Source of the DNA: Candidatus Woesearchaeota archaeon
GTDB lineage: Archaea; Nanobdellota; Nanobdellia; Woesearchaeales; UBA11576
NCBI GenBank assembly: GCA_018675335.1
Contig: JABGYH010000001.1
Span: 72,456-104,455 of the forward strand
DNA length: 32,000 bases
Direction: 5' to 3'
Positions 14,555-29,585 of this stretch are shown piece after piece. Within the stretch, counting starts at the first letter, position 1. The number at the start of each line of letters is the position of its first letter. The notes under the pieces are model-generated. The model had not been told where the DNA came from, did not search any database, and was given only the letters and a program-made list of their open reading frames with translations. The position numbers and the translations under genes are program-made.

Positions 14555-14789
14555 TTTATTATTAACCATTACAAATTTCTCTTTTTTATTAATATAAATC
14601 TAAAATCAAATTAAACCAAAACTCATTCTAAATAAAACACAAACACCAAATTTAAATCAAAAAACTCACTTGACCGCATATTTAATCCAAATTCACCACA
14701 ACCCTGTAACCACTTTATCATACTCACAATATCGAAATGTTTAAATATTTGTTATTTCTCCAAACACCATAACAAAATTTATTTTTATA

Positions 14790-14808
14790 AATTGAATATA
14801 ATTCAATT
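14790..14808. promoter_or_regulatory. 19-bp palindrome AATTGAAT-ATA-ATTCAATT between a TATA-like box and the first gene of the surface cluster (candidate operator)
   Basis: It has perfect 8-bp inverted arms with a 3-nt spacer. It sits directly after TTTTTATAA (14782-14790) and 20 nt before the ATG at 14828. An AGGGGGA Shine-Dalgarno-like element follows at 14814-14820. Confidence 0.35.
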
Positions 14809-14827
14809 ATTCTTAGGGGGATAAAAT

Positions 14828-16549
14828 ATGGCTGAAACATTAGAAAAAAAATTACTTTTTGTTGGAGGAAGATTTGTAGATCAAGCTCCAGAAAATTTAC
14901 CAATTCCTGCAGATGCAGTTCCAGAAGAGTTAGCTTCGCAATTTGCATGGTTCAAAGAAACCTATGGCAATCAAGCAGAAATTCACTATTTTAATGATAG
15001 CACAACACTTGCAACAGCAATGGGAAACCTTCCAAAAAAATCCGAATTACTAGGAATAGTTACAGAAGCAAATTTTGAAGGAGTAAAAACCCCCCTATTA
15101 TTAGATCCAGATAAAAAATATGAATGGGGAAATGACGCAAAAGAAGGAATAGTTTTAATGAAAAGACTAACCCAAGTAGCAACTTTTAAAGCAGTAGTTT
15201 CAGCATATAATCATAGCGATGAATTAGTAGCAGATCTAAATACCCCTGCAAAAAAAGATGCAGCAGAAGTTACTGATCCAAATCTTAGAACATCACATCT
15301 AGATATCAAAACTACTGAATCTAATAAAATTGCAACTGCATTCGGAAATTATCATGGACTTGAAATCAAATTTCCAGAAGTAAAAGAACCAAAAGTAGAT
15401 CCAGTAAAAGAACCAAAAGTAGAGCCTGCAAAAGAAGCAGAACCAATAGATTTAGAAATACAAGAACCCGCTCCAGTTGCAGTTCTAATACCAGAACCAA
15501 TTCGCTCAGATGTTCCACAACACAAAGGATCAACATTAAAAACAGTTTTATGGACTGCAGGAGTTATTACTGCTCTAGGCTTAACAGGCGCAGGATTTGG
15601 ACTGCATTATTTAAGTTCTGGAAATGTTTCTGAGTATCAAAGAAATTTAAGTGCAGAAATAGGAAAAGCAACAAAAAAAGGATTAATATCCCCTTACCAA
15701 GCAGAATTAATCGCAACAACACATATGACTCCTGACTTTTTTGAAAGATTTAGCAATTCAAGTTTAACTCAAAGATTAACAACTGCAAGAGCACTTATTA
15801 GCGATTATGATGTAGCAAATAATTCTTTTGAAGATTTATTAACAAGTAAAGGTCTGAAAGGCTCACCAGATAACTTCAATTTATCACTCCTTCAGTCAAC
15901 AGAATTAGCTTCATACATCAATGCAAGAGGAGTTTGTCAAATGCTAGGAATTGAAACTGGAGAATGTGATGCAGATCTTGAATCACTTGCAAAACGTCAA
16001 CCAATCCAACTTGCACAAGCAAAAGAACGAGTTTATCAAGATATTGCTCGAGGTCTTGCAGATATGGATCCATCCAAAATAGCAAATGTGGATTTAGTAT
16101 TATCTCAATTAATTACAACATTGCAAGCTGCAGATTCACAATATGCACCATTTAAAGATGGTTTAGTTCCTGGAGCAAACAGAAATGAAAATATAAGAAA
16201 TATTGTTGATGCCTACACTCAACACATGTTAGGCGCACAACAATGGGACCAACATCAAAAAACTCCCACTCCAGAATCAGTTGATTGGAAAACAAAATAT
16301 GATACACTAACTGCAACAAACGGACAACTTCAATTAGATTATGAAGGTGCTCAAGCAACTATTAAAACACAAGCGACAACAATCGCAGGAAAAGATGCAA
16401 CCATAGCTGGATTACAACAACCTACAAGCAGACATAGACGATCTAAACCAACTACAACAACAAAAAAAGTCACGCCAAAAAAAATCGTGACCGAACCACC
16501 AGTTATGAACGTTCCAAGTAGATTCGGTACAGACTCATATACATACTAA
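14828..16549 (+). CDS. Bitopic membrane protein: N-terminal soluble domain, Pro/Glu/Lys-rich spacer, single TM helix, ~310-aa C-terminal domain
   Basis: 573 aa with no N-terminal signal peptide. The spacer EVKEPKVDPVKEPKVEPAKEAEPIDLEIQEPAPVAVLIPEP maps to nt ~15371-15505. The TM helix VLWTAGVITALGLTGAGFGLHYL maps to nt ~15545-15613. The C-terminal part is Q/A/T-rich with a coiled-coil-like end and a basic tail. I recognise no family. Confidence 0.8.
   Translation: MAETLEKKLLFVGGRFVDQAPENLPIPADAVPEELASQFAWFKETYGNQAEIHYFNDSTTLATAMGNLPKKSELLGIVTEANFEGVKTPLLLDPDKKYEWGNDAKEGIVLMKRLTQVATFKAVVSAYNHSDELVADLNTPAKKDAAEVTDPNLRTSHLDIKTTESNKIATAFGNYHGLEIKFPEVKEPKVDPVKEPKVEPAKEAEPIDLEIQEPAPVAVLIPEPIRSDVPQHKGSTLKTVLWTAGVITALGLTGAGFGLHYLSSGNVSEYQRNLSAEIGKATKKGLISPYQAELIATTHMTPDFFERFSNSSLTQRLTTARALISDYDVANNSFEDLLTSKGLKGSPDNFNLSLLQSTELASYINARGVCQMLGIETGECDADLESLAKRQPIQLAQAKERVYQDIARGLADMDPSKIANVDLVLSQLITTLQAADSQYAPFKDGLVPGANRNENIRNIVDAYTQHMLGAQQWDQHQKTPTPESVDWKTKYDTLTATNGQLQLDYEGAQATIKTQATTIAGKDATIAGLQQPTSRHRRSKPTTTTKKVTPKKIVTEPPVMNVPSRFGTDSYTY
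15380..15423 (+). repeat. Perfect 20-nt tandem duplication with 24-nt period (encodes VKEPKVDP / VKEPKVEP)
   Basis: GTAAAAGAACCAAAAGTAGA occurs at 15380-15399 and again at 15404-15423. Confidence 0.9.
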
Positions 16550-16557
16550 GAGTTAAA

Positions 16558-16570
16558 TTTTTTATTTTTT
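16558..16570 (+). terminator. Oligo-T tracts (T6-A-T6) after the 573-aa gene
   Basis: TTTTTTATTTTTT starts 9 nt after the stop codon at 16547-16549. Confidence 0.4.
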
Positions 16571-16890
16571 CTTAAATTTTTATTCATCAATTTTCTAAAC
16601 ATCAATCCCACACATAATTCATACATAATTATCCAACACAGGATAATAACAATTTTATAACAAATATAATCAAATTCTAACTTAACCACCAAATCAACCC
16701 ACAAAAGCCAATTAAAATTTACTACGAACCAATACTAAAAAGCAGAATCTTTATATATTAGTACACCCAAAGAGTAGTTAAGAGTTTTAGGGGGTTTTGA
16801 AAACTCAAATATTGATTTTAAACTAAAAAAGAGCTGAATCTTCGTTATTTTAACGTAAATATCTATTATAATAGTTTAAAGAGTATAAAA

Positions 16891-19221
16891 ATGGCAAAAA
16901 ATCTAGATCTATCCAATAATACTGCTCAAAGTCGATCTTCATCCGCAGGAGCTGCGGCTATAGGAAGTATCGCAACATTAGCAACATTAGCTATTATGTC
17001 TGGAACACCTAGTTCTGCAAATGCACAAGAAATAGATTATGATGTTAAAGCACAAACAATAGCAGCTCAATCAGACTGTAAAATAACCAACGCAGGCCAA
17101 GATTTAACACCAACTGAAGTTGGTACAATTTCAACAATTCTAAGTGAAAACAATGATGTTCCTGATTTTGATATTTCAACACTTTGCTCAATTGCACAAA
17201 TAAAACCAGTAAGTCTAGAATGCAATGATGGATACTCAATAAATGAAGGAATTGATCATCTTTTCACAAGCCATCCCGTATTCAAATCAGCAGATAAAAG
17301 CCAAACAGGCACTGCAAAAAAAATTCTATACGATTATTTGACCACGCAAGGACACAGATCTTTTGATCAAAAACTCTTAACAAAAACAAAATTAAAAATT
17401 CCAGATGAAGTTGTAATTGATATGTACAGAGCAGCAATTGGACTTCCTTCATTAGATTCCAAAAAACAAACTGAATTAGAACAAAAACAATTAGAATTAA
17501 AACAACAACAAGTTGAAAAAAGATATTCTTCATTGGAATTAAAACTGGGCACTCTTGACACTCAAGCAGGAAAATTAATGCAAACCTGGACAGAACCATC
17601 AAATATTGCACAATACATTCAAACTGAATTAGAAGGAATTCATTCAGAAGAATTTGGTGGAAAAGAAAAACCTAAAGAAGAACAATTAATTAGTGCTAAA
17701 CAACAAGCGCTAACAACAAAACTCACTACTTATTCTCAAACATATGATGATCATCAAGCCAAACTACCTCGAGGAATTGCAAGACTTGGTGGCACTATAT
17801 CAACTCCATTAGAAGGAGATGGCCCAAATGCGTATGGTGGAAGTTTAGGTTTAAAATTAGGTAATGAATCATTTGATCTAAGCGCATATGGATTTATGTT
17901 AAAACCGTTCCCAACTCAAGTAACAACTGATTTTATTGGAGGTGGACTTCTTGAATTAAAATTATCTGATCGACATAGAATTTTATTAATGTTATCTGGA
18001 AATCAAAGTGGCTTATCAACATCAAGAACAACATCTCTTGATACTCAACCATTAATTATTAATGGTGAAACTTCACAAACAACAGGACATGAAAGTTTAG
18101 AAGATTCACTTAATTTATCTGAATTTTATATGACCTTAGGAGGAGAATTTACTGCTTGGAATCATTTAATTGCAGGAATTTATTTTGGTTTCGGAAATTT
18201 AGAAACAAGTCAAGATAATGATACTTCAATCGCTCAAACAGATACAACTCAATCTGAAATTAGTGAAGCAAACGGAACTGTTTTAGTATCAACTGATATT
18301 GGAACTCAAACAGATCTTACAACTACAACAAGAACTGATGTTGACACTCAACTATATTTTTTAGAAGGCCTCCTAGGTTATACTGGAAAGGGTCAAATTT
18401 ATAGTTTATTTGGAAATTTTGCGCTAGCCGAAACTACTGTTTCTTCATTAACGCAAATTGCAGGACTTAGTCAAACACAAGGGGTTGTTAGAACACAAAT
18501 TAATGACGAATTAATTGATACTCAAGACATTACTTCAAGCAGTCCATTAGATGATGCTGGAACTCCAGTAAGAATTTCTGATTCTCAAACAAGTTTTGCT
18601 ATTGGTGCAAGAATTTTAGTTCCATATGATGATGGATTATTTAGTCTTAAATTAAGTTATGATAACGGGACAAAAGGACTTCCATTAAGCGGTTATGCAT
18701 TATGGGCTCAGAATTTCAGCGGAATAACTCCTTTGTTAAGTGTTAATAAAACAGGAAATACTTATTCAGGACAATTCATGCTTTTTACAGGCATCGATGA
18801 TTCTAGATTTGAAAAAATTTCTCAAACTTATGACGGATTATTAGGTTTAGAACAAATTGCATTAGATCCAACTCTAGTCAGACAATATAGTCAAGACTCA
18901 TTAAAATTATTGACAACACAACTTAATGGATTATTTTTAGGCGGAAGATTTACTGCAGCAACAACTCCTAATGACCGCGCATTACTTACAGGTTCTGATG
19001 ACACAGATACAGAATTTGGAGGTTTTGGTTGGGCAGGATTTAATCATCCAGAATATGCAGGAGGCGCATTAATGTATGATCATACAGGCCAAAGACTTGG
19101 ACTACTACTAAACATAAATGCAATTCCGCACGTTCCATTACAATTAGAAGTTGGAACTGGAAATTTATCCGAGAAAAAAAAATCATTTGATGCAAGTCTA
19201 AACTTGGGTTACACATTTTAA
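16891..19221 (+). CDS. Secreted protein: signal peptide, Cys-containing N-domain, coiled coil, and a ~480-aa C-terminal beta-barrel-like domain ending in an OMP-type beta-signal
   Basis: 776 aa. The signal peptide has h-region AAAIGSIATLATLAIMSG with ANA|QE (predicted cleavage after residue 45). The coiled coil KKQTELEQKQLELKQQQVEKRYSSLELKLG maps to nt ~17461-17585. From residue ~294 there are many amphipathic Gly/aromatic-rich beta-hairpin-like segments. The C-terminus is FDASLNLGYTF-stop. Confidence 0.85.
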   Translation: MAKNLDLSNNTAQSRSSSAGAAAIGSIATLATLAIMSGTPSSANAQEIDYDVKAQTIAAQSDCKITNAGQDLTPTEVGTISTILSENNDVPDFDISTLCSIAQIKPVSLECNDGYSINEGIDHLFTSHPVFKSADKSQTGTAKKILYDYLTTQGHRSFDQKLLTKTKLKIPDEVVIDMYRAAIGLPSLDSKKQTELEQKQLELKQQQVEKRYSSLELKLGTLDTQAGKLMQTWTEPSNIAQYIQTELEGIHSEEFGGKEKPKEEQLISAKQQALTTKLTTYSQTYDDHQAKLPRGIARLGGTISTPLEGDGPNAYGGSLGLKLGNESFDLSAYGFMLKPFPTQVTTDFIGGGLLELKLSDRHRILLMLSGNQSGLSTSRTTSLDTQPLIINGETSQTTGHESLEDSLNLSEFYMTLGGEFTAWNHLIAGIYFGFGNLETSQDNDTSIAQTDTTQSEISEANGTVLVSTDIGTQTDLTTTTRTDVDTQLYFLEGLLGYTGKGQIYSLFGNFALAETTVSSLTQIAGLSQTQGVVRTQINDELIDTQDITSSSPLDDAGTPVRISDSQTSFAIGARILVPYDDGLFSLKLSYDNGTKGLPLSGYALWAQNFSGITPLLSVNKTGNTYSGQFMLFTGIDDSRFEKISQTYDGLLGLEQIALDPTLVRQYSQDSLKLLTTQLNGLFLGGRFTAATTPNDRALLTGSDDTDTEFGGFGWAGFNHPEYAGGALMYDHTGQRLGLLLNINAIPHVPLQLEVGTGNLSEKKKSFDASLNLGYTF

Positions 19222-19296
19222 ATTTAAATTTTTTATTTAATCTTTTAAAAAAAAATTAATCTCAAACTTAAAAATCATAAATTCAAAGGTTATAAA

Positions 19297-22200
19297 ATGA
19301 ATTCAAATAAAAAATCTCAAAAACTCCACTTTGTGGCAACGCATCTCATCATCTTACTTTTTGTAGTAAGTATGATTCCAGCTAATGTTTCTGGATTGCA
19401 AGATCTTCCACCTATTTGCAACATAATGCCAAATAGTAACGAAGTTATAACAACTGCAGTAATCACAATTACTGCAACAGATGTTTTAGCAAATGCAGGA
19501 ATTAATACTATGCGAATTTATGAAGATGGAAATTTATTAAATACTAAATCTTGCTATGGCGTATCAACTTGTGTTTTTACAAAAACAATTGTGCACACTA
19601 GTTCAAGTAATCATGCTTATTATGGAGTTGCGATTGATAACTCAGGTCAAAGCACAACTTCTGAAACTATCCAAATCAGTTTTGAAGGAATTAATAATCC
19701 ACCAATAATTACTAGTTATTCACCAGAAAATGTAATAGTAGAATTACCCGAACAAGAATCACAAAAATTTACAATAACTGCATCAGATCAAGAAAATGAT
19801 CCTATAACTTTTGAATGGTATAAAGGCCCATCAAAAATTAATGGTGCAAATACAAATTCATACACAATTTCTGAAAATGTTGACGATAATGAATCATTTA
19901 TTTTAGTTGCAAGAGCATTAGATAATAATGGAGGAGTTACAGTTAAAGGTTGGGTAGTTACAATAATTGATAGCGCACCAACAATTAACTTAAACACATA
20001 TCCTGTAATTGATGAAGGATTTACTGCAATTTTAGAGGCTAATGCCAATGCTTATGATGGAATTAGTTCGGTTTTTTGGGATTATGGAGATCAAACTTCC
20101 GAATTTGGAAATACTCAATCACATCACAGTTATGATGATCAAGGAGTTTATACAATTTCTGCAACTGTTGCTGATTTAGATGGTGATGAAATTACTGATA
20201 CTTTTGATCTAACTGTATTAGATGTTCAACCAACAATCATCTCATTAACTTGTCCTATTTCAATTACTGAAGGAGAAACTGCTGAATTTAGTGTTCAAGC
20301 AATTTCAGGATCAGATAAAGATTTAATTTCAAATTATGTTTGGGACTTTGGAGATAATACTCAAACTCAAGAAGGTCAAAATTTAAATGAAGCAACTCAC
20401 GAATTTACGAGCAGCAGTGCAACTACTGTCTCAGTATTAGTTCATGATGAAGATGGTTTTGTTGAAGATAATTGTTTTGTTGTTATTGGAGATACAGATC
20501 CTCAAGCAAGTTTTTCTTATCAACCAAATAACCCATTAGAACATGCAACCGTTGAATTTACTGATATGTCAATTGAAGGTTATGATCCAATTACTAATTG
20601 GGATTGGAATTTTGGTGATGGAGATATTTCTCAAGAACAAAATCCTACTCACGAATTTACTGATGGAACTTGGACTATTAGTTTAACTGTTACTGATAGC
20701 GATAATAGTCAAGATACAATTCAACAATTAATTACTGTTTCAAATAATCCTCCAACAGTTGCATTTAATTCTGATGTGACTGAAGGTGTTGAAGAATTAA
20801 CAGTTGAATTTGAATGCGAAATTACTGACGGAAATATCCCTTATGATTATGTTATATCATATGGTGATGGAAATTCAGATAATGGTCAAACAGATGAACA
20901 AACAATTCAAACAATTCACACTTATGAAGAAGATGGAGATTATCAAGCTACATGTACTACAACAGATATGGATGACGATACTGATTCAGATATAGTTGAC
21001 ATTACTGTTATTACCAATTCACCAATTGTTTCTCTTAATGCAAATCCTAATGAAGGAGAAGAAGAATTAGTTGTAGACTTTACTTGTGATATTAGCGAAG
21101 GTAACGCACCTTTTAGTTATGTCATGACCTATGGGGATACTACAGAAGAAGTTGGTCAAACAGAGGAATCAGTTATTGAATTTACTCACAATTATTTTGG
21201 TGGCGAATACACAGCTACTTGTACTATTACAGATAAAGATGGAGATACCAATTCAGATTTAGCAGATATTAGTGTACAAAATAATGCTCCAGAAGTTTCT
21301 CTTAATGTAACTCCTAATCAAGGTATTGAACCTTTAACAGTTGAATATACTTGTGACGGAATTGGCGGAAATGGAGAATTATCTTATTTAATTTTATTCG
21401 ACGATAATCTTGCTCAATCAGTTGAAAATATTGGAAGTTATACTTATAATCAAGAAGGAATTTATGCGCTAACTTGCGCAGTAACTGATATTGATGGAGA
21501 CACAACACAAAAAAATTTTGATGTTGATGTAACTGATAGTGTTCCAACAAATGTAGATATTAATTATGATCTTGAATTCATTGAAGAAATGGATTCAGTT
21601 TTATTTTCAGGAACTGCTGATGCATACGATCTTCCATTATCTTGGAGTTGGGATTTTAATGAGGATGGCATAGAAGACAGCGCAGAACAAAATCCAGAAT
21701 ATGTTTTTACTCAAAGTGGAATTTTTATAGTTAATTTGACAGTTACTGATTTTGATGGTAGCAAGACTTCAACAATTGAAATAATTGAAGTTTTAGATAA
21801 TGTTCCAACAATAGCGTTAAGTGTTGAACCAACAACTGGACTTGAACCAATAACAACTCAAATCAGTTGTGAAACTGAAGTTGGTGCAGGAAATACACCA
21901 TACACTTATAATATAAAATTTGGAACAACTGAAGACCCTCAAGAAATAGTTACAGATGAAATACAAGTTAATTTAGAACACACATATGATAATGGAAGTT
22001 TTAATTTAAGTTGTACAATAACTGATGTTGACGGAGATTTTGTTACAACTTCAACTCAAGTTAATATTACTGATTCAACTCCAACCGATCTTTCAATAAA
22101 TTTTAATCCAGAAAATCCTGTTGAAGGAGAAGAAGTTAATTTTATTGGAAATGCTAATGCTTATGATCTACCACTAATTTGGAGTTGGGATTTTAATGAA

Positions 22201-25200
22201 GATGGTGTAGAAGATAGCACTGAACAAAATCCCGAATTTACAGTTACACATAATGATTCTTACAATGTTTCGTTAACTGTTTTTGATAATGATGGAAGTA
22301 AAGAAGTAATTTATACTCAAATTGAAATTTCAAATAATATTCCTGGAGCAAATCTTATTTCAGATGTTGTAGAAGGAATTGAACCTTTAACTGTTGAATT
22401 TACTTGTGAACCTACTCAAGATACAACCTCCCCATCACTAAATTATAATTTAAATTTTGGAGATGGAAATTTTGAACAAATTAATAGCGAGTTAGATTCA
22501 GAAATATTCACGCATGTTTACAATACAACTAATGATCTCGCAGGATCAGATTTCCAAGAGTTTAATGCCTTTTGTAACATTACGGATTTTGATGGAGACA
22601 CTAGTACTTCAGAAAATATTTCAATTAATGTTTCAGATGTAGATCCTATTGCCGATTTTAGTTTTAATCCGGAAATTCCTGCAGAACTTGTTTTAGTACA
22701 ATTTACTGATGAATCAATTACTGTTGATCAAATCACCTCATGGAATTGGAATATTAATAATACCAATAATAACAATACAAGTTTAGATTTTAATTCAACA
22801 CAAAATGCGAGTTACCAATTTACCGAGGGAACTTATGAAATAACTTTAACAATCACTGAACCTGATGGAGATCAAGATGATATCACAAAAACTATTGAAG
22901 TTACAGATGATGCCCCAATAGTAACATTAATTGCAGATCCAAACTCAGGTATCGAACCAGTAAATGTTTCTTTTATTTGCAATAGTATTGGAGGAAATGA
23001 TCCAATTAACTATTTATTAAATTTCGGACTCAATGAATTTAATTCAACTTCAAATACTTTTTTAAGTATTGGATCACCAATTGAAACCAATCAAATTTAC
23101 GAAGAAGGAACATACGAAATTAATTGTTCTGCAACTGATTTTGATGGAGATAAAGCAACCGATATAGTAAGTATCGAAGTGCAAGATTCAATTCCAATAA
23201 TTAATTTTACTTTTGAACCTGAAGTTATTAATTCATATCAAGAAGTAATTTTCACACCAACAGTAGAAGGTTATGATTCTCCATTTACTTATGAATGGAG
23301 TTTTGAAAACTACCCTGCACTAACAATTACTGACGAAATTATGAAATTTGTTTTTAATCATGGAGATATTTATCCACTAACACTTACTGTTACTGATAGT
23401 GATGGAAGTGAAAAAACAATAAAAAAAGATATAATTGTTCCAATTGATGAAACTGCACCTGAAATTACTAATATAACAATAACAGAACTTACTAATCAAA
23501 GTGTTATCATTTCTTGGACTACTGATGAAATTGCAGCAAATGTAATTAATTATGGAATTTTAAATATTGATGAAAATACTATTGATGTAGAACTTAGTCC
23601 TGAATTAAACAATTCTGTTAAATTAATTAATTTAACTGCAGAAACAAATTATAATTTTACAATTGAAGCGTGTAACAGCGATAATATTTGTTCAGAATCA
23701 GATCAACTTAATTTTACAACCCTAGATACTCTGCCAGTTTTAATGAGTTTAGAAGTAACTCCTCTCGAAGGTTATGAACCCTTAACAGTAAACGTTAATT
23801 GCACAATCAAAAATGCAATCGGGCCAATAACATATGATATTGAATATGGTGATAACTCCGATTTGTTTAATACAACTAACACTCAAGGATTAATTGAAGA
23901 ATTTAGCATAATAAAAACTCATGAATATAATTTATCTGAAGATTTAAACAGCGAAGTATTCGATTTAACTTGTTCCATTTCAGATGCGAATGATTATAGC
24001 AATTCAAAAGAGGCAAATATAATTGTTAATGATTCAATCCCAACTAATCTTAATTTTAATTGGTCGGTTTATGCTATGGATTTACTAAATGAACCAGTAC
24101 CTCAAAATGCTTACGTGTATTTTAGTTCAGAATTTAACTCATATGATTCTCCCTCAACAGTTATGTGGGATTTTAACAATGATGGGATCATAGATGATTT
24201 TGGATTAGAGGAAGTTTATGTGTTTGATGCTCCAGGAACATACACAGTTAACATGACTGTTTCAGATGCAGACTTAGATGAAACATCAATCACTAAAGAA
24301 ATTGAAGTTTATGAAACAAATCTAACTCCTCCAAACGTTAACTCAGTTAATGCATTACCTTCAAATTTAATTTATGGCAGTGATATAAACACACTTATCA
24401 TATCAAATGTTAATGATGATAATTATGCAATTGATAATGTACGATATGAAATTACTAATTTAAATTTAGGCAATCAAATGAATACTCTTTTTGCAAGTCC
24501 AATTCAAGAAGAGACTTGCACATTCACAGTAGAAAATATTAGCCAAGAATTTACATTAAACGAAGATGAAATCATCCAATTTGAATTCGAGGGCCAAACA
24601 TATGATTTAGAAGTTGAATCTATTTGGAATAACTTTTGTTACATTGAAATCGGATATTATGATAATAATAATGATTGGATTTGGGATGATCAAGACGTAA
24701 AAAAAGACGAATCAGAACTAATTAACGGAATCAATATTAGTGTATCTGAAGTATATGATCCTTGGGGCCCAAGAGGATTTTGTTTATTTGAATCAGAATA
24801 TCAAGGGGAAACCAAAACTGGTTGGATTGATAGTTATGGTCAAGGTTTAGAAATTAACGGATTTGACTTTGATGTTGATTGGGTTGATGACGTTGAAAAA
24901 ACATGTGATTTTGAAATAGATCAAGGAAATGCAGAAGCTTATTTTGAAGAAATGGAAATTGGAGAATTAATCAATTTTAATGGCATAAAAATGACTTTAC
25001 TTGATGTTAAAGGTGCAAGCGAAAATAGATGGGCTGCACTTTATCAACCGATTACAAGCGGAATTTATGATGTTCAAGTTATTGCAAATAATGTAGTTAA
25101 CTCAGTTAATGATTCCGAACATACTGAATTCATAGTTGAAGGAATAGGTGATGAAATTTGCACCATAGTAAGTCAAAATGAGGGAGCTCAACTTATTAAC

Positions 25201-27369
25201 TTAGATGGAATAGATTATGAAATTAATTTATTGTATGTTAATGAACAAAAAGTTAAATTTCAAATCAATGGAGAAATTACTCCACTCTTAAACACAAATC
25301 AATATTTCACTTTAAACGATGGAAATGAAATTTATGCAACAACCACTAATTATCAACCAACTGTCTTTGGAGATCATGAAGCAATTGTTTGTTTAACAGA
25401 TATTTCTCACAGTAACGAAGGAGAAGGATTTCCAGTTTGTAATGGTGAAATAAATAACCTAATAGCAGAAGGTGAAGAAAAAAACTATTTAATGAATGGA
25501 GAAATCATCTCAGTTACTCTTGATGAAGTTACAGAATTTCAAGCAAACTTTAATGTAAATGGAGAACAAACAGAATTATTAACTACTCAAGAAACATTTA
25601 CTTTATCAAATAATGGAGAAATAACTCCGTTAGAAATTTTATACCAACCATTTATTGGTGGAATTAAATCTTCTGAATTTTGTTTAGATTATAATATTGA
25701 ACCAAGCAATCAACAGTTAATGAACTTGCTTGAAACTTCTTTAGAGGATAGTAGTTTAGGACAAGCAATTAACAACAATTCATATTTATGTTTTGAAGTT
25801 TTTAGTGAAGAATCAGGACTGCACTCTTATAACGCAGAATTAGAAAATGAAAATAATAATTGGAATATTAACTTAGATCAAGAATTTTGTGATGGTAATG
25901 AATCTGAAGATTATAATTTCCGTTACCAAAGTATTGATGAATTTCAAGAATCTATGAATAATTTTACTTGTAATTTCTTAAAACAAGATTTCAATAATGC
26001 ATATTATTTATTGCCCTCAAAATATGCAGAAAATGGCAACTTCATATTTGAAGAAGAACAATGTTCAGTTTATGGAATGGTTTGGAATGCTTGTTTCACA
26101 AATTTTGAAAAAATAATTTATGACATTCCTAAATGTGAAGGATTAGGTCCAGAAGAAATTCCACCGCCAGTAGCAACTCTTACAACTGACATAGTATTTG
26201 GCGAAGCACCACTTGATGTTACGTTTAATTGTAGTGTTGAAAATGGCACTGCGCCGTTTAATTATACATTAAATTTTGGGGATGGAAATTTTACTGAATT
26301 AAATAATTCAGTAGAAACATATTTTGAAGCAACACATAATTTTAATGAATCTGGAAATTACACAGGAGTTTGCACAATTACTGACGCAAATGAAGATAAT
26401 AGTGAATCATCTACTGAAGTTAAAGTTTTTGCAATTGGAGAACTTCCTGAAACATTAGAATTTGATTTAATAGCATTACCAAATTCAGGTTTAAATCCAT
26501 TACAAGTTAACTTTTTTGCAAATGTAACTAATGGTACCGCCCCTTATTCGTTTAAATGGGATTTCAGTTATGATAATCAAGATATCTCTGTTGAGTCAAC
26601 AAATCAACAACAATTACATATTTACAATCTACCAGGAACTTATACTGCATTCCTAAGTGTTACTGATGATTCAGGTCAAACAAGTAACCTAACAAAAGAG
26701 ATTATAGTATCATCTTTAGAAAGAGATGTAGGGGTTATTAATTTGAATTATCCTAAATTTGATTCAACAACCTATCTTAATGATACAGTTGAAATTGACG
26801 CGACAATAATTAATAATGGCAATTCTGAAGAAGAAATAGAAATTGAATTTTTAATCAACAATGTGGTTGAAGAATCAACATTAATAATCCTTGCAGGAAA
26901 TGGCGCAACTAAACAAATTTTATTTAACTTTAGTGCAGGAGAATTAGGTTATCAAAATCTTAAGGTAAGAGTAAAAACTCTTCCAGGTGAAACTAATTTT
27001 GCTAATCAACAATTATCTTACAATGCATTAGTTTGGAGTGTTGATGACATTATTAGTCAAGCAACAAGAGAATTATTTTTTAATGAAACTTCAATTAATA
27101 ATGGAGAATCATTTACAGTTCATCTGCCACTTCAAAATGATTGGAATGCAGAGGATTATGCATTTAAAGATTTAATGGCTGAGTTAGTTTTTGATAATGA
27201 AAGTTTCACGTCAAATCCCGATGCAATCCAATTAGTTGACTTTAATGAAGGAGAATTTAAAGTTCTTACTTGGAATTTAGAATCAAATACGACAGGCACA
27301 TTTGATATTGGCGCAAATTTAGGTAATAATGAAATCATTATTGCTTCCAAGCAAGTGGAGGTGATCTAA
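19297..27369 (+). CDS. Giant secreted surface protein (2690 aa): about 17 PKD-like domains, one Fn3, a Cys-rich non-PKD central insert and a C-terminal CARDB-like domain; no membrane anchor
   Basis: The signal peptide is HLIILLFVVSMIPANVSG|LQ. PKD hallmarks (W-D-F-G-D-G type motifs: WDYGD, WDFGDN, WNFGDG, WSWDFNEDG, NFGDGN) recur every ~90 aa. An Fn3-like domain lies at nt 23455-23727 (ITNITITELTNQSVIISWTTDE...YNFTIEACN). A CARDB-like domain lies at nt ~26717-27040 (DVGVINLNYPKF...VEIDATIINNGNSEEEIEIEF). Many N-x-S/T sequons are present. Confidence 0.9.
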   Translation: MNSNKKSQKLHFVATHLIILLFVVSMIPANVSGLQDLPPICNIMPNSNEVITTAVITITATDVLANAGINTMRIYEDGNLLNTKSCYGVSTCVFTKTIVHTSSSNHAYYGVAIDNSGQSTTSETIQISFEGINNPPIITSYSPENVIVELPEQESQKFTITASDQENDPITFEWYKGPSKINGANTNSYTISENVDDNESFILVARALDNNGGVTVKGWVVTIIDSAPTINLNTYPVIDEGFTAILEANANAYDGISSVFWDYGDQTSEFGNTQSHHSYDDQGVYTISATVADLDGDEITDTFDLTVLDVQPTIISLTCPISITEGETAEFSVQAISGSDKDLISNYVWDFGDNTQTQEGQNLNEATHEFTSSSATTVSVLVHDEDGFVEDNCFVVIGDTDPQASFSYQPNNPLEHATVEFTDMSIEGYDPITNWDWNFGDGDISQEQNPTHEFTDGTWTISLTVTDSDNSQDTIQQLITVSNNPPTVAFNSDVTEGVEELTVEFECEITDGNIPYDYVISYGDGNSDNGQTDEQTIQTIHTYEEDGDYQATCTTTDMDDDTDSDIVDITVITNSPIVSLNANPNEGEEELVVDFTCDISEGNAPFSYVMTYGDTTEEVGQTEESVIEFTHNYFGGEYTATCTITDKDGDTNSDLADISVQNNAPEVSLNVTPNQGIEPLTVEYTCDGIGGNGELSYLILFDDNLAQSVENIGSYTYNQEGIYALTCAVTDIDGDTTQKNFDVDVTDSVPTNVDINYDLEFIEEMDSVLFSGTADAYDLPLSWSWDFNEDGIEDSAEQNPEYVFTQSGIFIVNLTVTDFDGSKTSTIEIIEVLDNVPTIALSVEPTTGLEPITTQISCETEVGAGNTPYTYNIKFGTTEDPQEIVTDEIQVNLEHTYDNGSFNLSCTITDVDGDFVTTSTQVNITDSTPTDLSINFNPENPVEGEEVNFIGNANAYDLPLIWSWDFNEDGVEDSTEQNPEFTVTHNDSYNVSLTVFDNDGSKEVIYTQIEISNNIPGANLISDVVEGIEPLTVEFTCEPTQDTTSPSLNYNLNFGDGNFEQINSELDSEIFTHVYNTTNDLAGSDFQEFNAFCNITDFDGDTSTSENISINVSDVDPIADFSFNPEIPAELVLVQFTDESITVDQITSWNWNINNTNNNNTSLDFNSTQNASYQFTEGTYEITLTITEPDGDQDDITKTIEVTDDAPIVTLIADPNSGIEPVNVSFICNSIGGNDPINYLLNFGLNEFNSTSNTFLSIGSPIETNQIYEEGTYEINCSATDFDGDKATDIVSIEVQDSIPIINFTFEPEVINSYQEVIFTPTVEGYDSPFTYEWSFENYPALTITDEIMKFVFNHGDIYPLTLTVTDSDGSEKTIKKDIIVPIDETAPEITNITITELTNQSVIISWTTDEIAANVINYGILNIDENTIDVELSPELNNSVKLINLTAETNYNFTIEACNSDNICSESDQLNFTTLDTLPVLMSLEVTPLEGYEPLTVNVNCTIKNAIGPITYDIEYGDNSDLFNTTNTQGLIEEFSIIKTHEYNLSEDLNSEVFDLTCSISDANDYSNSKEANIIVNDSIPTNLNFNWSVYAMDLLNEPVPQNAYVYFSSEFNSYDSPSTVMWDFNNDGIIDDFGLEEVYVFDAPGTYTVNMTVSDADLDETSITKEIEVYETNLTPPNVNSVNALPSNLIYGSDINTLIISNVNDDNYAIDNVRYEITNLNLGNQMNTLFASPIQEETCTFTVENISQEFTLNEDEIIQFEFEGQTYDLEVESIWNNFCYIEIGYYDNNNDWIWDDQDVKKDESELINGINISVSEVYDPWGPRGFCLFESEYQGETKTGWIDSYGQGLEINGFDFDVDWVDDVEKTCDFEIDQGNAEAYFEEMEIGELINFNGIKMTLLDVKGASENRWAALYQPITSGIYDVQVIANNVVNSVNDSEHTEFIVEGIGDEICTIVSQNEGAQLINLDGIDYEINLLYVNEQKVKFQINGEITPLLNTNQYFTLNDGNEIYATTTNYQPTVFGDHEAIVCLTDISHSNEGEGFPVCNGEINNLIAEGEEKNYLMNGEIISVTLDEVTEFQANFNVNGEQTELLTTQETFTLSNNGEITPLEILYQPFIGGIKSSEFCLDYNIEPSNQQLMNLLETSLEDSSLGQAINNNSYLCFEVFSEESGLHSYNAELENENNNWNINLDQEFCDGNESEDYNFRYQSIDEFQESMNNFTCNFLKQDFNNAYYLLPSKYAENGNFIFEEEQCSVYGMVWNACFTNFEKIIYDIPKCEGLGPEEIPPPVATLTTDIVFGEAPLDVTFNCSVENGTAPFNYTLNFGDGNFTELNNSVETYFEATHNFNESGNYTGVCTITDANEDNSESSTEVKVFAIGELPETLEFDLIALPNSGLNPLQVNFFANVTNGTAPYSFKWDFSYDNQDISVESTNQQQLHIYNLPGTYTAFLSVTDDSGQTSNLTKEIIVSSLERDVGVINLNYPKFDSTTYLNDTVEIDATIINNGNSEEEIEIEFLINNVVEESTLIILAGNGATKQILFNFSAGELGYQNLKVRVKTLPGETNFANQQLSYNALVWSVDDIISQATRELFFNETSINNGESFTVHLPLQNDWNAEDYAFKDLMAELVFDNESFTSNPDAIQLVDFNEGEFKVLTWNLESNTTGTFDIGANLGNNEIIIASKQVEVI
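19699..24312 (+). repeat. Coding tandem array of ~270-nt PKD/Ig-like domain repeats (interrupted by one Fn3 unit)
   Basis: Each unit ends in a short linker of the form V-x-[DN]-x-x-P. Two alternating subtypes are visible: a Cys-pair type (E-P-L-T-V-E-F-T-C ... C-x-I-T-D-x-D-G-D) and a W-x-W-D-F type. A second short array lies at 26158-26716. Confidence 0.85.
27357..27366 (+). promoter_or_regulatory. Perfect 10-nt Shine-Dalgarno GGAGGTGATC inside the last codons of the giant gene
   Basis: It is the exact complement of the conserved 16S rRNA 3' end GAUCACCUCC. It is followed by TAA (27367-69) and then directly by the ATG at 27370. Confidence 0.75.
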
Positions 27370-29139
27370 ATGAATACAATTAAAAATCACAAAATGGATG
27401 ATATTAAAAATCACAAAATAAAATCAAGTATTGGAAAAAAAATAAATAAAGCATTCATGTTTTGCATGTTATTTTGTATCATACTTATTTCAGCCTCAGG
27501 AATTGCATTTGGTGCTGAATGTAGTGGAACTTTAAGTGCACCTACTAAGTCATTATATGTGGGCGAACAATTCGATATTAATTTCTTCAATGCAGAAGCA
27601 ACAAGTAATGGAATGGATGTTAATTTAACTCTTTCACCAAATTTAGCAACACTTGATACAAATCCTCAAGCAGGAATTCCTTTTACAACTAATTCATGGA
27701 CTGTTAATAGTTCAGCAACTGGAAATTTACTTAGTAATGTAAAAATAATTGGTTTATGTGAAAAAAATTTTACTATTAAAATTATTAATCAAGTAGAAGA
27801 TCCAAATATTGAAATTAATTTAAGCGAAATTCCAGAGTTAACTCTTGGAACCAGTCATGAATTTAATGTAACTCTTAATAATACTGGACTTGGCAATGCT
27901 ACTGAAATTAGTGGTATTTTATCAACTGCTACAAACAGCGCAATTATCCCTGATTCATTTAGTAATTTTAATTTAGAACCTAATACTTCAAAAACAGATT
28001 CGTATATGATAACTCCAACTCAATGTGGAACTGATACATTAACTATTTTAGTTAATAACTACAAAAATGAAAATAGCGAATTAATGGTCCCAGTTTTAAA
28101 AGAAGCAACATACTCAGTTACCGGATCAGATATTGCATTTACAACAATCAGTGCAGAAAACAATTTCAAAGAAGGTGAAAATTTTGAAGTAAATTTCACC
28201 ATTGAAAATTTAAAAAATATTAATGCATCAGACATAATTGTTAATTTTTACAAAAATGAATCATTACTAGGTTCAAAATCAATTAATTTGTTAGTTGCAA
28301 ATAATCAATCAGAACACACAATTAGTTTATCAGGAGATAGTTTTCATGCAGGAAATCACACATTAAAAGCAAGCATAGAATCATTAAATGAGTGTAGTTC
28401 AAAGAATAATGAAATTGAATTTGAAGTTACAAACATTGTTGGTGGAACTTGTTCAGATAAAATTAAAAACGGTGATGAAACCGGAACTGACTGTGGCGGT
28501 AGTTGTAGTAGTTCATGTACGCCTGATGAACCAACTATCCCTTCTGGAAATGGTGGTAGTCCAAGTGGTTCAGGGAATACAATTAAAATTGAATTATCAG
28601 AAGATCTTCCCAGTGTAACAGTTATTGTTTACAAAAGCGATACTGTAAAACTTATTTTTGAAGACAAACCATATTATCTTAATTTTGATAAATTATATGC
28701 TAACAAAGGAAGAATTACACTTAGACTTCCAGGACCAGATACAGTAAAAATGTTGGATGAAGATCAAACTTTAAATGTAGATATTAATAAAAATGGAACT
28801 GAAGATATTGGAATAACCATGGAAGAAATTAATACAGGTAAAGCAAATATTAAATTCGAATTATTATCTGCAAAAAAAATAACTCCGAACATAATTCCTA
28901 TGACTTCAAAAAAAGTTGATTCAGAAGTAAATACTACAGAGTCAGATAAACCTGACGAATCACAATTAAAGGAAGCGAAAACAGATGTTAAAGAATCTTT
29001 TTCCGAAGGAATTTTGAGTTTTATTGAAACTTTTTCAGTTAGATCAAAAGCACCTGTTTTTGGAGGAATTGCTTTATCATTAGCAATTATTGTGTTAGGA
29101 CTAGGAATTTATTTTGTTATTAGTAGAAAAAAAGAATAA
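27370..29139 (+). CDS. Surface protein with signal peptide, CARDB-like repeats, a 4-Cys module and a C-terminal TM anchor
   Basis: 589 aa. The signal peptide is FMFCMLFCIILISASGIAFGA|EC. CARDB-like segments include NLSEIPELTLGTSHEFNVTLNNTGLGNA and TISAENNFKEGENFEVNFTIENL. The 4-Cys module C-SDKIKNGDETGTD-C-GGS-C-SSS-C maps to nt 28450-28518. The C-terminal helix PVFGGIALSLAIIVLGLGIYFVI plus RKKE maps to nt ~29054-29136. I counted about 15 N-x-S/T sequons by eye. Confidence 0.85.
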   Translation: MNTIKNHKMDDIKNHKIKSSIGKKINKAFMFCMLFCIILISASGIAFGAECSGTLSAPTKSLYVGEQFDINFFNAEATSNGMDVNLTLSPNLATLDTNPQAGIPFTTNSWTVNSSATGNLLSNVKIIGLCEKNFTIKIINQVEDPNIEINLSEIPELTLGTSHEFNVTLNNTGLGNATEISGILSTATNSAIIPDSFSNFNLEPNTSKTDSYMITPTQCGTDTLTILVNNYKNENSELMVPVLKEATYSVTGSDIAFTTISAENNFKEGENFEVNFTIENLKNINASDIIVNFYKNESLLGSKSINLLVANNQSEHTISLSGDSFHAGNHTLKASIESLNECSSKNNEIEFEVTNIVGGTCSDKIKNGDETGTDCGGSCSSSCTPDEPTIPSGNGGSPSGSGNTIKIELSEDLPSVTVIVYKSDTVKLIFEDKPYYLNFDKLYANKGRITLRLPGPDTVKMLDEDQTLNVDINKNGTEDIGITMEEINTGKANIKFELLSAKKITPNIIPMTSKKVDSEVNTTESDKPDESQLKEAKTDVKESFSEGILSFIETFSVRSKAPVFGGIALSLAIIVLGLGIYFVISRKKE

Positions 29140-29151
29140 AGTAAATAATTA

Positions 29152-29229: not shown

Positions 29230-29476
29230 CTCCCATTTAGCATTAAAACCAATATCAACTTCACATATCAAAAATACGCAAATTCTTTTTAAATTTAAAC
29301 ATGTCATTTATTTAATATAAAACTCACATTCTCTAAAAATAATTATCATCTTCTAAAAATAATTATAATAATACACTATAATAATATATTAGAATAAAAA
29401 TTAAGAGATATTTCACCCAAACATTTATAAAAAAGAATACTAAAATAAACATAATATAGATTATAACTCAATATTT

Positions 29477-29549: not shown

Positions 29550-29585
29550 TAAAAATAATTTTAAAAAAGAGGTGTTAAATTTTTT

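What the first reader, a model, noticed from the sequence alone, without database searches (positions are those of the whole stretch)
14790..29139. Four-gene envelope/adhesion cluster with no recognisable enzymes: candidate undescribed surface or host-contact system
Four consecutive + strand genes (573, 776, 2690 and 589 aa) fill about 45% of the window, and every product carries envelope signatures. (i) The first has an internal TM helix plus a rigid-looking Pro/Glu/Lys spacer. (ii) The second has a signal peptide, a coiled coil and a C-terminal beta-barrel-like domain. (iii) The third is an anchorless giant with a signal peptide, about 17 PKD-like domains, Fn3 and CARDB. (iv) The fourth has a signal peptide, CARDB-like repeats, a 4-Cys module and a C-terminal TM anchor. 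Genes iii and iv abut with 0 nt between stop and start, behind a perfect 10-nt Shine-Dalgarno. Genes ii and iii are 75 nt apart. A palindrome sits at the promoter of gene i, and a TrmB regulator is encoded 750 nt upstream. The block is bracketed by tRNA genes (two Thr upstream, Val downstream). My inference is that iv anchors iii at the cell surface, ii forms a pore or outer-layer component, and i links to the cytoplasmic membrane. That would be a dedicated attachment apparatus of the kind an episymbiotic small-genome archaeon would need. I know of no described system with this composition.
Basis: partly seen in the sequence, partly recalled or inferred. Interest (0 to 1): 0.8.

Follow-up and report, generated by a model that had tools for sequence, protein, structure and literature searches.

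The report
Fast-evolving surface-protein cluster in a Woesearchaeote
Four neighbouring genes of a tiny marine archaeon (Woesearchaeota) encode fast-evolving cell-surface proteins, including a giant sticky fibre that probably hangs on a separate membrane anchor; this is a real but narrowly distributed variant of a known kind of surface protein, and there is no evidence yet that all four form one machine.

Summary
The four + strand genes exist exactly as described, and most anatomical details hold. The window comes from a Candidatus Woesearchaeota MAG.

The same order (TrmB, i, ii, iii, iv) recurs in one other Woesearchaeota population. There the flanking housekeeping genes are 58-85% identical but the four cluster proteins only 27-38%. 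The cluster is therefore vertically inherited, chromosomal and evolving unusually fast. It is not an island.

A third, more distant lineage keeps the iii-iv pair. The stop and start are 0, 1 or -4 nt apart in the three lineages, in three different relative frames, and the best-conserved parts are the C-terminal ~300 aa of iii and the N-terminal domain of iv.

Genes i and ii are near-orphans with no fold assignment, and each has its own conserved TATA-like box. So three transcription units are likely, not one operon. The beta-barrel reading of ii is unverified, and the palindrome is neither significant nor conserved.

Verdict: a new variant of the known DPANN giant-adhesin / two-component surface-layer theme. 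A four-part apparatus is possible but unsupported.

The parts
14734..14748 (+). Conserved BRE/TATA-like block GAAATGTTTAAATAT (TTTAAATA at 14740-14747), about 85 nt upstream of the gene i ATG. Likely the gene i promoter.
   Evidence: The block is conserved between the window and L003 in the upstream alignment. The sequence was read. Its function as a promoter is inferred.
14790..14808 (.). Palindrome AATTGAAT-ATA-ATTCAATT, lying between the TATA-like box and the start of gene i.
   Evidence: It is present but not significant (P about 0.17 per spacer) and not conserved in L003.
14828..16549 (+). Gene i (573 aa), a bitopic membrane protein. It has an N-terminal alpha/beta-type domain (aa 1-180), a Pro/Glu/Lys linker (aa 181-235, with a 24-nt tandem repeat at 15379-15436), a TM helix (aa ~236-262), an all-helical C-domain with a conserved Cys370/Cys380 pair, and a basic tail (aa 531-573).
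   Evidence: ORF. No family hit. One homolog of 713 aa in lineage B at 27-28% identity with the same layout and a much longer linker. TM hydrophobicity. Secondary structure comes only from a low-confidence AF2 model. Tandem repeat.
16750..16764 (+). Conserved TATA-like box TTTATATAT followed by AGTAC, about 140 nt upstream of the gene ii ATG. Likely gene ii's own promoter, with a leader of roughly 110 nt containing conserved blocks (for example AAAAAAGAGCTGA at 16825-16837).
   Evidence: Alignment of the i-ii spacers from the window, L003 and L004. The leader is not unusually structured (z = 0.34 and -0.52). No Rfam family matched.
16891..19221 (+). Gene ii (776 aa), a secreted protein. It has a signal-like N-terminus ending ANA|QE, a helical region (aa ~105-292), and a Cys-free, Gly/Thr/Leu-rich C-domain (aa 293-776) ending in Y-T-F.
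   Evidence: ORF. No family hit. An exhaustive HMMER search of 1.84 billion representatives found only itself and one fragment. The full-length homolog P0009 is 34% identical and ends Y-E-F. AF2 gave pLDDT 37.8.
19223..19229 (+). TTTAAAT motif directly after the stop codon of ii, about 70 nt upstream of the gene iii ATG. Possible promoter of the iii-iv unit.
   Evidence: TTTAAAT is present in the ii-iii spacers of the window, L003 and L004. This is weak evidence in AT-rich DNA.
19297..27369 (+). Gene iii (2690 aa), a giant secreted acidic (pI 4.05) fibre with no anchor. In order: signal-like N-terminus; Ig-like N-region; 15 PKD-like domains (aa 238-1663) with one fn3 (aa 1390-1472); a variable Cys-containing central region (aa 1664-2294) with a duplicated 80-aa module (aa 1952-2032 and 2048-2129); 2 PKD domains (aa 2295-2462); and a conserved CARDB-like C-terminal module (aa 2463-2690, DNA 26683-27366).
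   Evidence: Pfam. Local HMM. Lineage B homolog: 35% identity over aa 1-1284, 44% over aa 2387-2689, and the middle not alignable. Lineage C: 34% to the very C-terminus. Duplicated module. pI and C-termini. No PDB relatives for the centre or the C-terminus.
27357..27369 (+). GGAGGTGATC Shine-Dalgarno followed by the TAA stop of iii, directly abutting the ATG of iv (translational coupling).
   Evidence: Sequence. The junction is 1 nt in L003 and a 4-nt overlap in L002. The relative frames are 0, +1 and +2.
27370..29139 (+). Gene iv (589 aa), a C-terminally TM-anchored surface protein. In order: signal-like N-terminus; conserved N-domain (aa 50-145, with ECSGTLS and CEKNF motifs); two CARDB-like domains (aa 146-350); a lineage-specific 4-Cys insert (aa 361-383, DNA 28450-28518); a beta-rich C-domain (aa 403-500); a stalk; and a TM segment with a basic tail (aa 559-589).
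   Evidence: Pfam. TM segment. Homologs in lineage B (38-41%) and lineage C (28-30%) over the full length. Per-domain conservation. No PDB relatives.
13335..14075 (+). TrmB-family regulator. It is a conserved neighbour (83% identity in lineage B). A link to the cluster is not shown.
14179..14554 (+). Two tRNA-Thr genes (GGT at 14179-14250, AGT at 14482-14554) upstream of gene i. They are context, not a conserved boundary.
   Evidence: Lineage B has a single, inverted, intron-containing tRNA in this spacer.
29476..29550 (+). tRNA-Val(GAC) downstream of iv. It is conserved in lineage C and absent from lineage B.

Best explanation
This is a chromosomal, vertically inherited, rapidly diverging cell-envelope neighbourhood of a marine Woesearchaeote. 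It most likely consists of three transcription units: i, ii, and iii-iv.

The functional core is the translationally coupled pair iii-iv. Protein iii is exported through Sec as a very acidic fibre of about 2,650 aa, with 17 PKD-like domains, one fn3 and a variable central region, and it has no membrane anchor of its own. Protein iv is made in step with it and sits in the cytoplasmic membrane by its C-terminal TM helix, with its CARDB-like domains and conserved N-terminal domain projecting outward. The conserved C-terminal ~300 aa of iii dock non-covalently onto the membrane-distal part of iv. The PKD array and the variable centre therefore project away from the cell as an adhesin or outer coat for contact with a host or a particle.

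Genes i (bitopic membrane protein, probably N-in/C-out) and ii (secreted, with a helical part and a beta-rich part) are further lineage-specific envelope proteins with their own promoters. Whether they act together with iii-iv is open.

Shown: the gene structures, the domains, the conservation pattern, and the coupling geometry. Inferred: docking of iii on iv, the topology of i, the promoter assignments, and the adhesive role.
For: Anatomy.

Protein iii has no C-terminal TM segment in any of three lineages, while iv always has a C-terminal TM segment with a basic tail.

The iii-iv junction is 0, 1 or -4 nt in three lineages, in three different relative frames. Coupling is therefore selected for, and a fusion is excluded.

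Conservation peaks at the C-terminal module of iii (44% in lineage B and 34% in lineage C, against about 35% for the N-terminal half and no alignable middle) and at the N-domain of iv (50% and 36%).

The flanks are 58-85% identical while the cluster proteins are 27-38% identical. That is the pattern reported for surface proteins of DPANN symbionts (PMC6142677).

Separate conserved TATA-like boxes lie upstream of i and ii, and oligo-T runs follow i, ii and iv.

Giant Ig/PKD surface proteins are already viewed as host-contact proteins in DPANN (PMC10266531). Pairs of a large anchorless Ig-rich protein and a smaller C-terminally TM-anchored protein are the SlaA/SlaB logic, also proposed for Nanobdella (10.1101/2023.10.27.564410).
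Against: No interaction was tested. No multimer prediction was possible, and there is no detectable shared module between iii and iv.

Only three lineages are known, two of them close relatives, so conservation of adjacency is partly just shared ancestry.

The N-terminal hydrophobic segment of iii could be an uncleaved signal anchor, which would make a separate anchor unnecessary.

The perfect Shine-Dalgarno is not conserved in the other lineages.

There are no expression data. Promoter calls in 70% AT DNA are weak.

The symbiotic lifestyle and the host of this organism are unknown.
Confidence: 0.5

Rival explanations
1. One reading: all four proteins build one envelope-spanning attachment apparatus. 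Protein iv anchors iii, ii forms a beta-barrel-like pore or outer layer, and i ties it to the cytoplasmic membrane.
For: The order of the four genes is conserved in lineage B. All four are envelope proteins that diverge at similar, high rates. Protein ii and its homolog both end in Y-x-F, and the last ~200 aa are the best-conserved part of ii (40-49%). Both i and ii carry long helical segments that could pair.
Against: The synteny comes from a close relative whose flanks are collinear too. Genes i and ii have separate conserved promoter-like boxes, and the spacers between them are 264-341 nt. Beta-amphipathic segments in the C-domain of ii are no more frequent than in shuffled sequence. AF2 does not fold it. 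There are no OMP family or PDB hits. From general knowledge, archaea have no BAM machinery, and no outer membrane is known for Woesearchaeota. The Pro/Glu/Lys spacer of i lies on the N-terminal, presumably cytoplasmic, side of its TM helix.
Confidence: 0.12
2. iii-iv, or alternatively ii, is the organism's S-layer proper: a lattice-forming coat with its anchor, like SlaA/SlaB. It would not be a dedicated adhesin, and the cluster would simply be the cell-wall locus.
For: The geometry of a large anchorless Ig-rich protein followed by a smaller C-terminally anchored one matches SlaA/SlaB and the pair proposed for Nanobdella. The proteins have acidic pI values. S-layer proteins typically diverge fast and look like orphans (10.1101/2023.10.27.564410). 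Gene ii has a consensus TATA-like box and a long conserved leader.
Against: A string of 17 tandem PKD domains looks more like a fibre than a lattice unit. N-glycosylation sequons are not significantly enriched. There is no sequence relation to any solved S-layer protein. There are no expression or lattice data.
Confidence: 0.15
3. The four are independent surface proteins that are merely neighbours. Protein iv does not hold iii, and the tight junction only secures co-expression.
For: Only a narrow clade carries the genes. There is no detectable complementarity or shared module. The genome region as a whole is collinear.
Against: Coupling is kept in three lineages despite frame changes. The anchor-less and anchored features are complementary in all three lineages. 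The conservation maxima fall at the C-terminus of iii and the N-domain of iv.
Confidence: 0.2
4. iii and iv are one gene interrupted by an in-frame stop. This would be an assembly error, a pseudogene or programmed read-through, giving a 3,280-aa C-terminally anchored protein.
For: In the window iv is in the same frame as iii, separated by a single TAA.
Against: An independent Logan assembly of the same organism has the identical sequence. In lineages B and C, iv is in the +1 and +2 frames. In all three lineages iv has its own start codon and signal-like N-terminus, and the window has a perfect Shine-Dalgarno.
Confidence: 0.02

Closest known systems
Two-component S-layer SlaA/SlaB of Sulfolobales, and the SlaA-like/SlaB-like pair proposed for the DPANN archaeon Nanobdella aerobiophila (MJ1_0160 / MJ1_0707; 10.1101/2023.10.27.564410)
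   Same: A large secreted Ig-like-rich protein without an anchor is paired with a smaller Ig-like protein that has a C-terminal TM helix. The proteins diverge fast and look like orphans. In Sulfolobales the two genes are adjacent (general knowledge).
   Different: There is no sequence similarity. Protein iii is a 17-PKD tandem array more than twice the size of SlaA. Nothing shows that it forms a lattice. Protein iv has CARDB-like domains rather than the SlaB beta-sandwich plus coiled-coil stalk.
Giant surface proteins of DPANN archaea (the 'SPEARE' proteins and SVXNc_0300 / BNXNv_0298 of Nanohaloarchaeota; PMC10266531)
   Same: A very large, very acidic, Sec-exported protein made largely of tandem Ig-like, fibronectin-like or PKD domains. 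It occurs in a small-genome DPANN archaeon and is presumed to contact the host. Such genes stand out against otherwise collinear genomes.
   Different: Those proteins are 5,000-9,400 aa, membrane-bound themselves, and carry or neighbour VirB4/TraG-like ATPases. Here no ATPase or any other enzyme domain is present in or next to the cluster, and the anchor is a separate gene.
Giant repeat adhesins of bacteria (RTX/T1SS adhesins such as LapA, SiiE and FrhA; NCBIfam T1SS-143 repeat)
   Same: A long array of Ig-like repeats acts as an extender, with a variable region presumed to bind ligand. The protein is held at the surface by a separate protein rather than by its own anchor. There is a weak repeat-level hit to the T1SS-143 repeat (56 bits, below the 66-bit cut-off).
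   Different: Export here is through a Sec-type N-terminal signal, not a C-terminal T1SS signal. There are no ABC, MFP or OMP genes in the cluster. The organism is an archaeon. The hit is below the family threshold.
Bacterial outer-membrane beta-barrel proteins (considered for gene ii only)
   Same: Signal peptide. A Cys-free, Gly- and aromatic-rich C-terminal region. A C-terminal Y-x-F in both known members.
   Different: There is no OMP family hit. Beta-amphipathic periodicity is not significantly enriched. Predicted helices lie inside the region at aa 637-681. From general knowledge, the host lineage has no known outer membrane or BAM.

Membership tests
PKD-domain repeat surface proteins (Pfam PF18911 / PF00801) | Multiple PKD domains scoring above Pfam's gathering threshold | tested here: met
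   PKD_4 scored 323.6 bits (cut-off 27) in 13 stretches, and PKD scored 184.7 bits. The local HMM finds 17 domains.
PKD-domain repeat surface proteins (Pfam PF18911 / PF00801) | Export signal and extracellular location | tested here: inconclusive
   An N-terminal hydrophobic segment with a small-residue cleavage motif is conserved in lineage B. No dedicated signal-peptide predictor and no experiment was available.
CARDB-domain cell-surface proteins (Pfam PF07705) | A CARDB domain above the gathering threshold | tested here: met
   Protein iv, aa 259-346, scored 36.9 bits against a cut-off of 22.7. The second copy in iv (20.3 bits) and the copy in iii (19.3 bits) are below the cut-off.
SlaA/SlaB two-component S-layer | Sequence or profile homology to SlaA or SlaB | tested here: not met
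   No PDB sequence hits for the iv profile, the centre of iii or the C-terminus of iii. No Pfam or NCBIfam S-layer family matched.
SlaA/SlaB two-component S-layer | A large anchorless subunit encoded next to a smaller C-terminally TM-anchored subunit | tested here: met
   The arrangement is conserved in three lineages.
SlaA/SlaB two-component S-layer | Formation of a 2D lattice, with very high expression | not testable with these tools
   This needs cryo-ET, proteomics or transcriptomics.
Nanohaloarchaeal giant 'SPEARE' / T4SS-like surface proteins | A VirB4/TraG-like ATPase domain in the giant protein or in the adjacent gene | tested here: not met
   No ATPase domain in iii, in iv or in the neighbouring genes of the cluster.
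Bacterial-type outer-membrane beta-barrel (gene ii) | A C-terminal aromatic residue (beta-signal-like Y-x-F) | tested here: met
   ...LNLGYTF in the window and ...NATYEF in P0009. This rests on only two sequences.
Bacterial-type outer-membrane beta-barrel (gene ii) | A series of amphipathic transmembrane beta-strands, or a barrel fold | tested here: inconclusive
   The density of beta-amphipathic windows is 0.040 against 0.033 +/- 0.016 in shuffles. AF2 gave pLDDT below 40 across aa 288-776. No fold search was run because the model is unusable.
Bacterial-type outer-membrane beta-barrel (gene ii) | Homology to a known OMP family | tested here: not met
   Pfam, NCBIfam, and PDB sequence and profile searches were all negative.
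Diversity-generating retroelement target | A reverse transcriptase together with a template/variable repeat pair | tested here: not met
   No RT gene in the window (and the ORF list). No long near-identical direct repeats; the PKD repeats are only 60-72% identical at the DNA level.
tRNA-flanked genomic island or mobile element | Presence or absence relative to conserved flanks, tRNA boundaries, and mobility or viral genes | tested here: not met
   The cluster sits between the same flanking genes in lineage B and, on the downstream side, in lineage C. The tRNA boundaries are not conserved. No viral relatives. No PHROGs hits.
Receiver (CheY-like) domain (N-domain of gene i) | Profile similarity to response-regulator receiver domains | tested here: not met
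   hhalign probability was 0.1% against the neighbouring response regulator's profile. No Pfam hit at E below 1.

The most novel reading that the evidence does not exclude
Gene ii is an archaeal beta-barrel-type outer-layer or pore protein. The hints are a conserved C-terminal Y-x-F and a Gly- and aromatic-rich, Cys-free C-domain. In this reading it works with the bitopic membrane protein i and the split adhesin iii-iv as a single envelope-spanning host-contact machine in a Woesearchaeote. That would imply an outer compartment, or a pore inserted into the host, in a DPANN lineage where none is known.
Probability: 0.06. Interest if true: 0.85.

Novelty: new variant of a known kind. Interest (0 to 1): 0.4.

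Why it matters
How DPANN archaea hold on to their hosts is largely unknown, and no Woesearchaeote has been cultivated. A conserved pair made of a giant anchorless PKD fibre and a dedicated membrane anchor would give a concrete, testable handle on the surface architecture of this abundant marine lineage. Possible uses include antibodies or tags against iv, and docking assays with the C-terminal module of iii.

The 27-38% identity inside the cluster, against 58-85% outside it, marks the cluster as a hotspot of surface evolution. That is the expected signature of host or phage interaction. Families i and ii add two envelope protein families with no known fold.

If the cluster were shown to be one machine, or ii a true barrel, the importance would rise sharply. 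On present evidence it is an interesting but not surprising DPANN surface locus.

Tried and rejected
1. Word-indexed protein searches for i, ii and iv returned almost only the query itself. They missed the 27-41% identical lineage B homologs that turned up later, so those negatives are weak.

2. Single-sequence AF2 of ii and i gave mean pLDDT 37.8 and 40.1. I ran no fold searches because matches to such models are meaningless.

3. The beta-amphipathicity scan of ii was not different from shuffled sequence.

4. A receiver-like fold for the N-domain of i was rejected (hhalign probability 0.1%).

5. A module shared between the centre of iii and the C-domain of iv was rejected. The 80-aa module is duplicated only within iii. 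The C-terminus of iii against iv shows no similarity.

6. The palindrome as an operator: not significant and not conserved.

7. A structured RNA leader upstream of ii: z-scores of 0.34 and -0.52, and no Rfam hit.

8. A DGR, a mobile island or a viral origin: rejected.

9. A defence system: no PADLOC hits.

10. A single gene read through a stop codon: rejected by the frame comparison.

11. The first scans of genome and metagenome contigs with a two-sequence iv profile found nothing. The repeat scans recovered only lineage B again.

12. N-glycosylation sequon enrichment was only 1-2 SD above shuffles.

13. The NCBIfam hit of iii to CPR pilus protein PamR (87 bits against a 300-bit cut-off) is generic Ig/Fn3-like repeat similarity, not membership.
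Full report
ORIGIN AND CONTEXT

The window is archaeal. It has about 30% GC and encodes a TrmB regulator, a histidine kinase and response regulator pair, Vut_1, TctA, Ldh_2, PfkB, an ABC-2 transporter and a long-form AMP-phosphorylase-like protein. Proteins i, ii and iv are identical to HN587_00470, HN587_00475 and HN587_00485 of a Candidatus Woesearchaeota MAG, on a 609 kb contig. An independent Logan assembly, L001, is 100% identical over 14.7 kb.

THE OBSERVATION

All four ORFs, the gap sizes, the abutting TAA/ATG with GGAGGTGATC in front, the three tRNAs and the TrmB gene are exactly as described.

Protein iii has 17 PKD-like domains, one fn3 and a weak Ig_3 hit. Its C-terminal CARDB match is below threshold. 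Protein iv has one solid and one sub-threshold CARDB, a C-terminal TM helix and a 4-Cys motif.

Proteins i and ii match nothing in Pfam, NCBIfam, PHROGs, PADLOC or PDB sequences, whether as single sequences or as profiles. The statement that there are no recognisable enzymes holds.

Three details do not hold up:
- The palindrome at 14790-14808 is expected by chance in about 17% of such spacers and is not conserved.
- The beta-barrel-like description of ii could not be substantiated.
- The tRNA bracket is not a conserved boundary.

RELATED LOCI

The word-indexed searches returned essentially only the queries themselves. An exhaustive HMMER scan of 1.84 billion representatives with ii found one 97-aa fragment. 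That fragment's cluster contains a full-length 759-aa protein from another Woesearchaeota MAG, 34% identical to ii end to end.

Its contigs (L003-L009) carry response regulator, HisKA kinase, Vut_1, TrmB, a 713-aa protein, the 759-aa protein, a 2590-aa PKD protein and a 552-aa CARDB protein, followed by the AMP-phosphorylase-like gene. This is the same order as in the window. All of these loci are 100% identical to one another, so they count as one lineage, B.

Between the window and lineage B the flanking proteins are 58-85% identical, but i, ii, iii and iv are only 27, 34, 35 and 38% identical.

A third, more distant lineage, C (L002; GC 42%; AMP-phosphorylase-like protein 54% identical), has a full-length iv homolog at 28% identity. 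It is preceded by the C-terminal 604 aa of a iii homolog, which is 34% identical and collinear to the last residue, and it is followed by tRNA-Val(GAC). That contig ends inside iii, so i and ii cannot be assessed there.

No relatives were found in viral contigs or elsewhere in the GTDB representative genomes and JGI metagenomes.

WHAT THE COMPARISON SAYS

First, the cluster is a stable chromosomal locus, not an island. It is evolving several-fold faster than its surroundings. This is typical of exposed surface proteins in DPANN symbionts (PMC6142677).

Second, the conserved four-gene order is only weak evidence for joint function. The one lineage that shows it is a close relative in which everything around the cluster is collinear too.

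Third, the iii-iv pair has independent support:
- The junction is 0 nt in the window, 1 nt in lineage B and a 4-nt overlap in lineage C, in relative frames 0, +1 and +2. The frame differences also exclude a single gene with read-through.
- Protein iii lacks any C-terminal anchor in all three lineages, and iv always ends in a TM helix with a basic tail.
- Within iii, the last ~300 aa are the most conserved part (44% in lineage B, 34% in lineage C). The N-terminal 1,284 aa are about 35% identical, and the middle ~1,000 aa are not alignable.
- Within iv, the membrane-distal N-domain (ECSGTLS...CEKNF) is the most conserved ectodomain segment, at 50% and 36%.

A conserved tail on the giant protein, a conserved tip on the anchor and conserved co-translation are what a docking pair predicts. 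The interaction itself is inferred, not shown. I found no shared module or homology between the two proteins.

GENES I AND II

Gene i and its 713-aa homolog share the following layout:
- an N-terminal ~180-aa domain;
- an acidic/Pro-rich linker of very different length (55 aa against about 200 aa);
- a Gly-rich TM helix;
- a ~270-aa C-domain with two invariant Cys;
- a strongly basic tail.

With no signal peptide and a 235-390-aa N-terminal part, an N-in/C-out topology is the likely one. That puts the rigid-looking Pro/Glu/Lys spacer in the cytoplasm rather than in the envelope. AF2 gives only low-confidence secondary structure: an alpha/beta N-domain and an all-helical C-domain. A receiver-like fold was tested and rejected.

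Gene ii and its homolog share a signal-like N-terminus (ANA|QE and ALA|ED), a helical region and a Cys-free, Gly/Thr/Leu-rich C-domain whose last ~200 aa are best conserved. Both end in Y-x-F.

By eye, the C-domain of ii reads as strand-turn-strand units with long Thr/Asp/Gln loops. However, the density of beta-amphipathic windows is not above shuffled controls. AF2 predicts helices at aa 637-681 and is otherwise unconfident. No OMP family matches. I therefore treat the barrel as an open, low-probability possibility.

TRANSCRIPTION UNITS

Alignment of the spacers shows conserved archaeal TATA-like boxes:
- GAAAT[G/C]TTTAAATAT about 85 nt upstream of i;
- TTTATATAT[T/G]AGTAC about 140 nt upstream of ii, followed by further conserved blocks such as AAAAAAGAGCTGA;
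- a TTTAAAT motif right after the stop codon of ii.

Oligo-T runs follow i, ii and iv but not iii. The likeliest arrangement is three units: i, ii, and iii-iv. The leader of ii is conserved in sequence but is not unusually structured. The bacterial promoter scanner was not used because it does not cover archaeal promoters.

MECHANISM PROPOSED

Protein iii is Sec-exported and held at the surface by iv. The PKD array acts as an extender, and the variable Cys-containing centre (with a duplicated 80-aa module) or the N-terminal region provides binding specificity. Proteins i and ii are additional envelope proteins, possibly a coat protein and its membrane partner. Confidence is about 0.5 for the iii-iv part.

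Rivals:
- an S-layer proper (0.15);
- unrelated neighbours (0.2);
- a split single gene (0.02).

COMPARISON WITH KNOWN SYSTEMS

The logic of iii-iv resembles SlaA/SlaB and the pair proposed for Nanobdella, but without sequence homology.

Protein iii belongs to the recognised class of giant Ig/PKD surface proteins of DPANN. It is smaller than those, it lacks the VirB4-like ATPase, and its anchor is a separate gene.

Repeat-level similarity to bacterial T1SS adhesin repeats and to the CPR pilus protein PamR is below threshold and generic.

I therefore rate the locus as a new variant of a known kind, containing two orphan envelope families. Interest is moderate at 0.4. The locus is real, conserved and testable, but a specialist would expect such loci in DPANN genomes.

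LIMITS

- Only two complete clusters and one partial cluster are known.
- The exhaustive search was run for ii only.
- No usable structure models, no multimer prediction and no expression data were available.
- Signal-peptide and topology calls were made by inspection.

Noticed in passing
window 14482-14554 (and 14179-14250): The second tRNA-Thr has anticodon AGT (A34), with anticodon loop CTAGTAA. It sits 230 nt from a tRNA-Thr(GGT) that already reads the same codons. From memory, A34 tRNAs are not expected in Archaea. The four cluster proteins are 9-11% Thr against 5.8% in the flanking genes, and ACT is the commonest Thr codon in iii (138 of 268).
   Followed up: partly
L003 4951-5059 (- strand): Lineage B has a single 109-nt, intron-containing tRNA between TrmB and gene i. 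It is homologous to the window's tRNA-Thr(GGT) but on the opposite strand. ARAGORN missed it and Rfam found it at 50 bits. This implies an inversion plus intron gain or loss between close relatives.
   Followed up: partly
window 16750-16837 (i-ii spacer): Non-coding blocks (TTTATATAT.AGTAC, AATATTGATT, AAAAAAGAGCTGA) are conserved between lineages whose adjacent proteins are only about 30% identical. The region is not a known RNA family and is not unusually stable. It may be a promoter together with protein-binding sites in a leader of roughly 110 nt.
   Followed up: partly
window 28450-28518 (iv aa 361-383): The 4-Cys motif CSDKIKNGDETGTDCGGSCSSSC is an insertion specific to the window lineage. 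Lineages B and C have a Gly/Ser linker at that position. It matches a C-x-D-x(3)-NG-x-E-[TS]-x-x-DCGG module repeated many times in unrelated large secreted proteins P0006-P0008. This looks like a small mobile Cys-knot-like module.
   Followed up: partly
window 29149-29228: An AT-rich tandem repeat (17-nt unit TTATTATTTAATTTATT, 4.8 copies) lies directly downstream of iv, in the 336-nt spacer before tRNA-Val.
   Followed up: no
window 25150-25683 (iii aa 1952-2129): A Cys-bounded module of about 80 aa is duplicated in tandem inside the variable centre of iii. Only a partial copy is present in lineage B (aa 1686-1720 of its iii), and the module has no Pfam or PDB match.
   Followed up: partly
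L002 3465-3785: In lineage C a 106-aa ORF overlaps the stop codon of the iv homolog by 4 nt, so it may be a third coupled gene. It has no counterpart after iv in the window.
   Followed up: no
window 15379-15436 (gene i linker): The Pro/Glu/Lys spacer of gene i is encoded by a 24-nt tandem repeat (2.4 copies, 91% matches). The homologous linker in lineage B is about 150 aa longer. The linker length therefore appears to evolve by repeat expansion.
   Followed up: no
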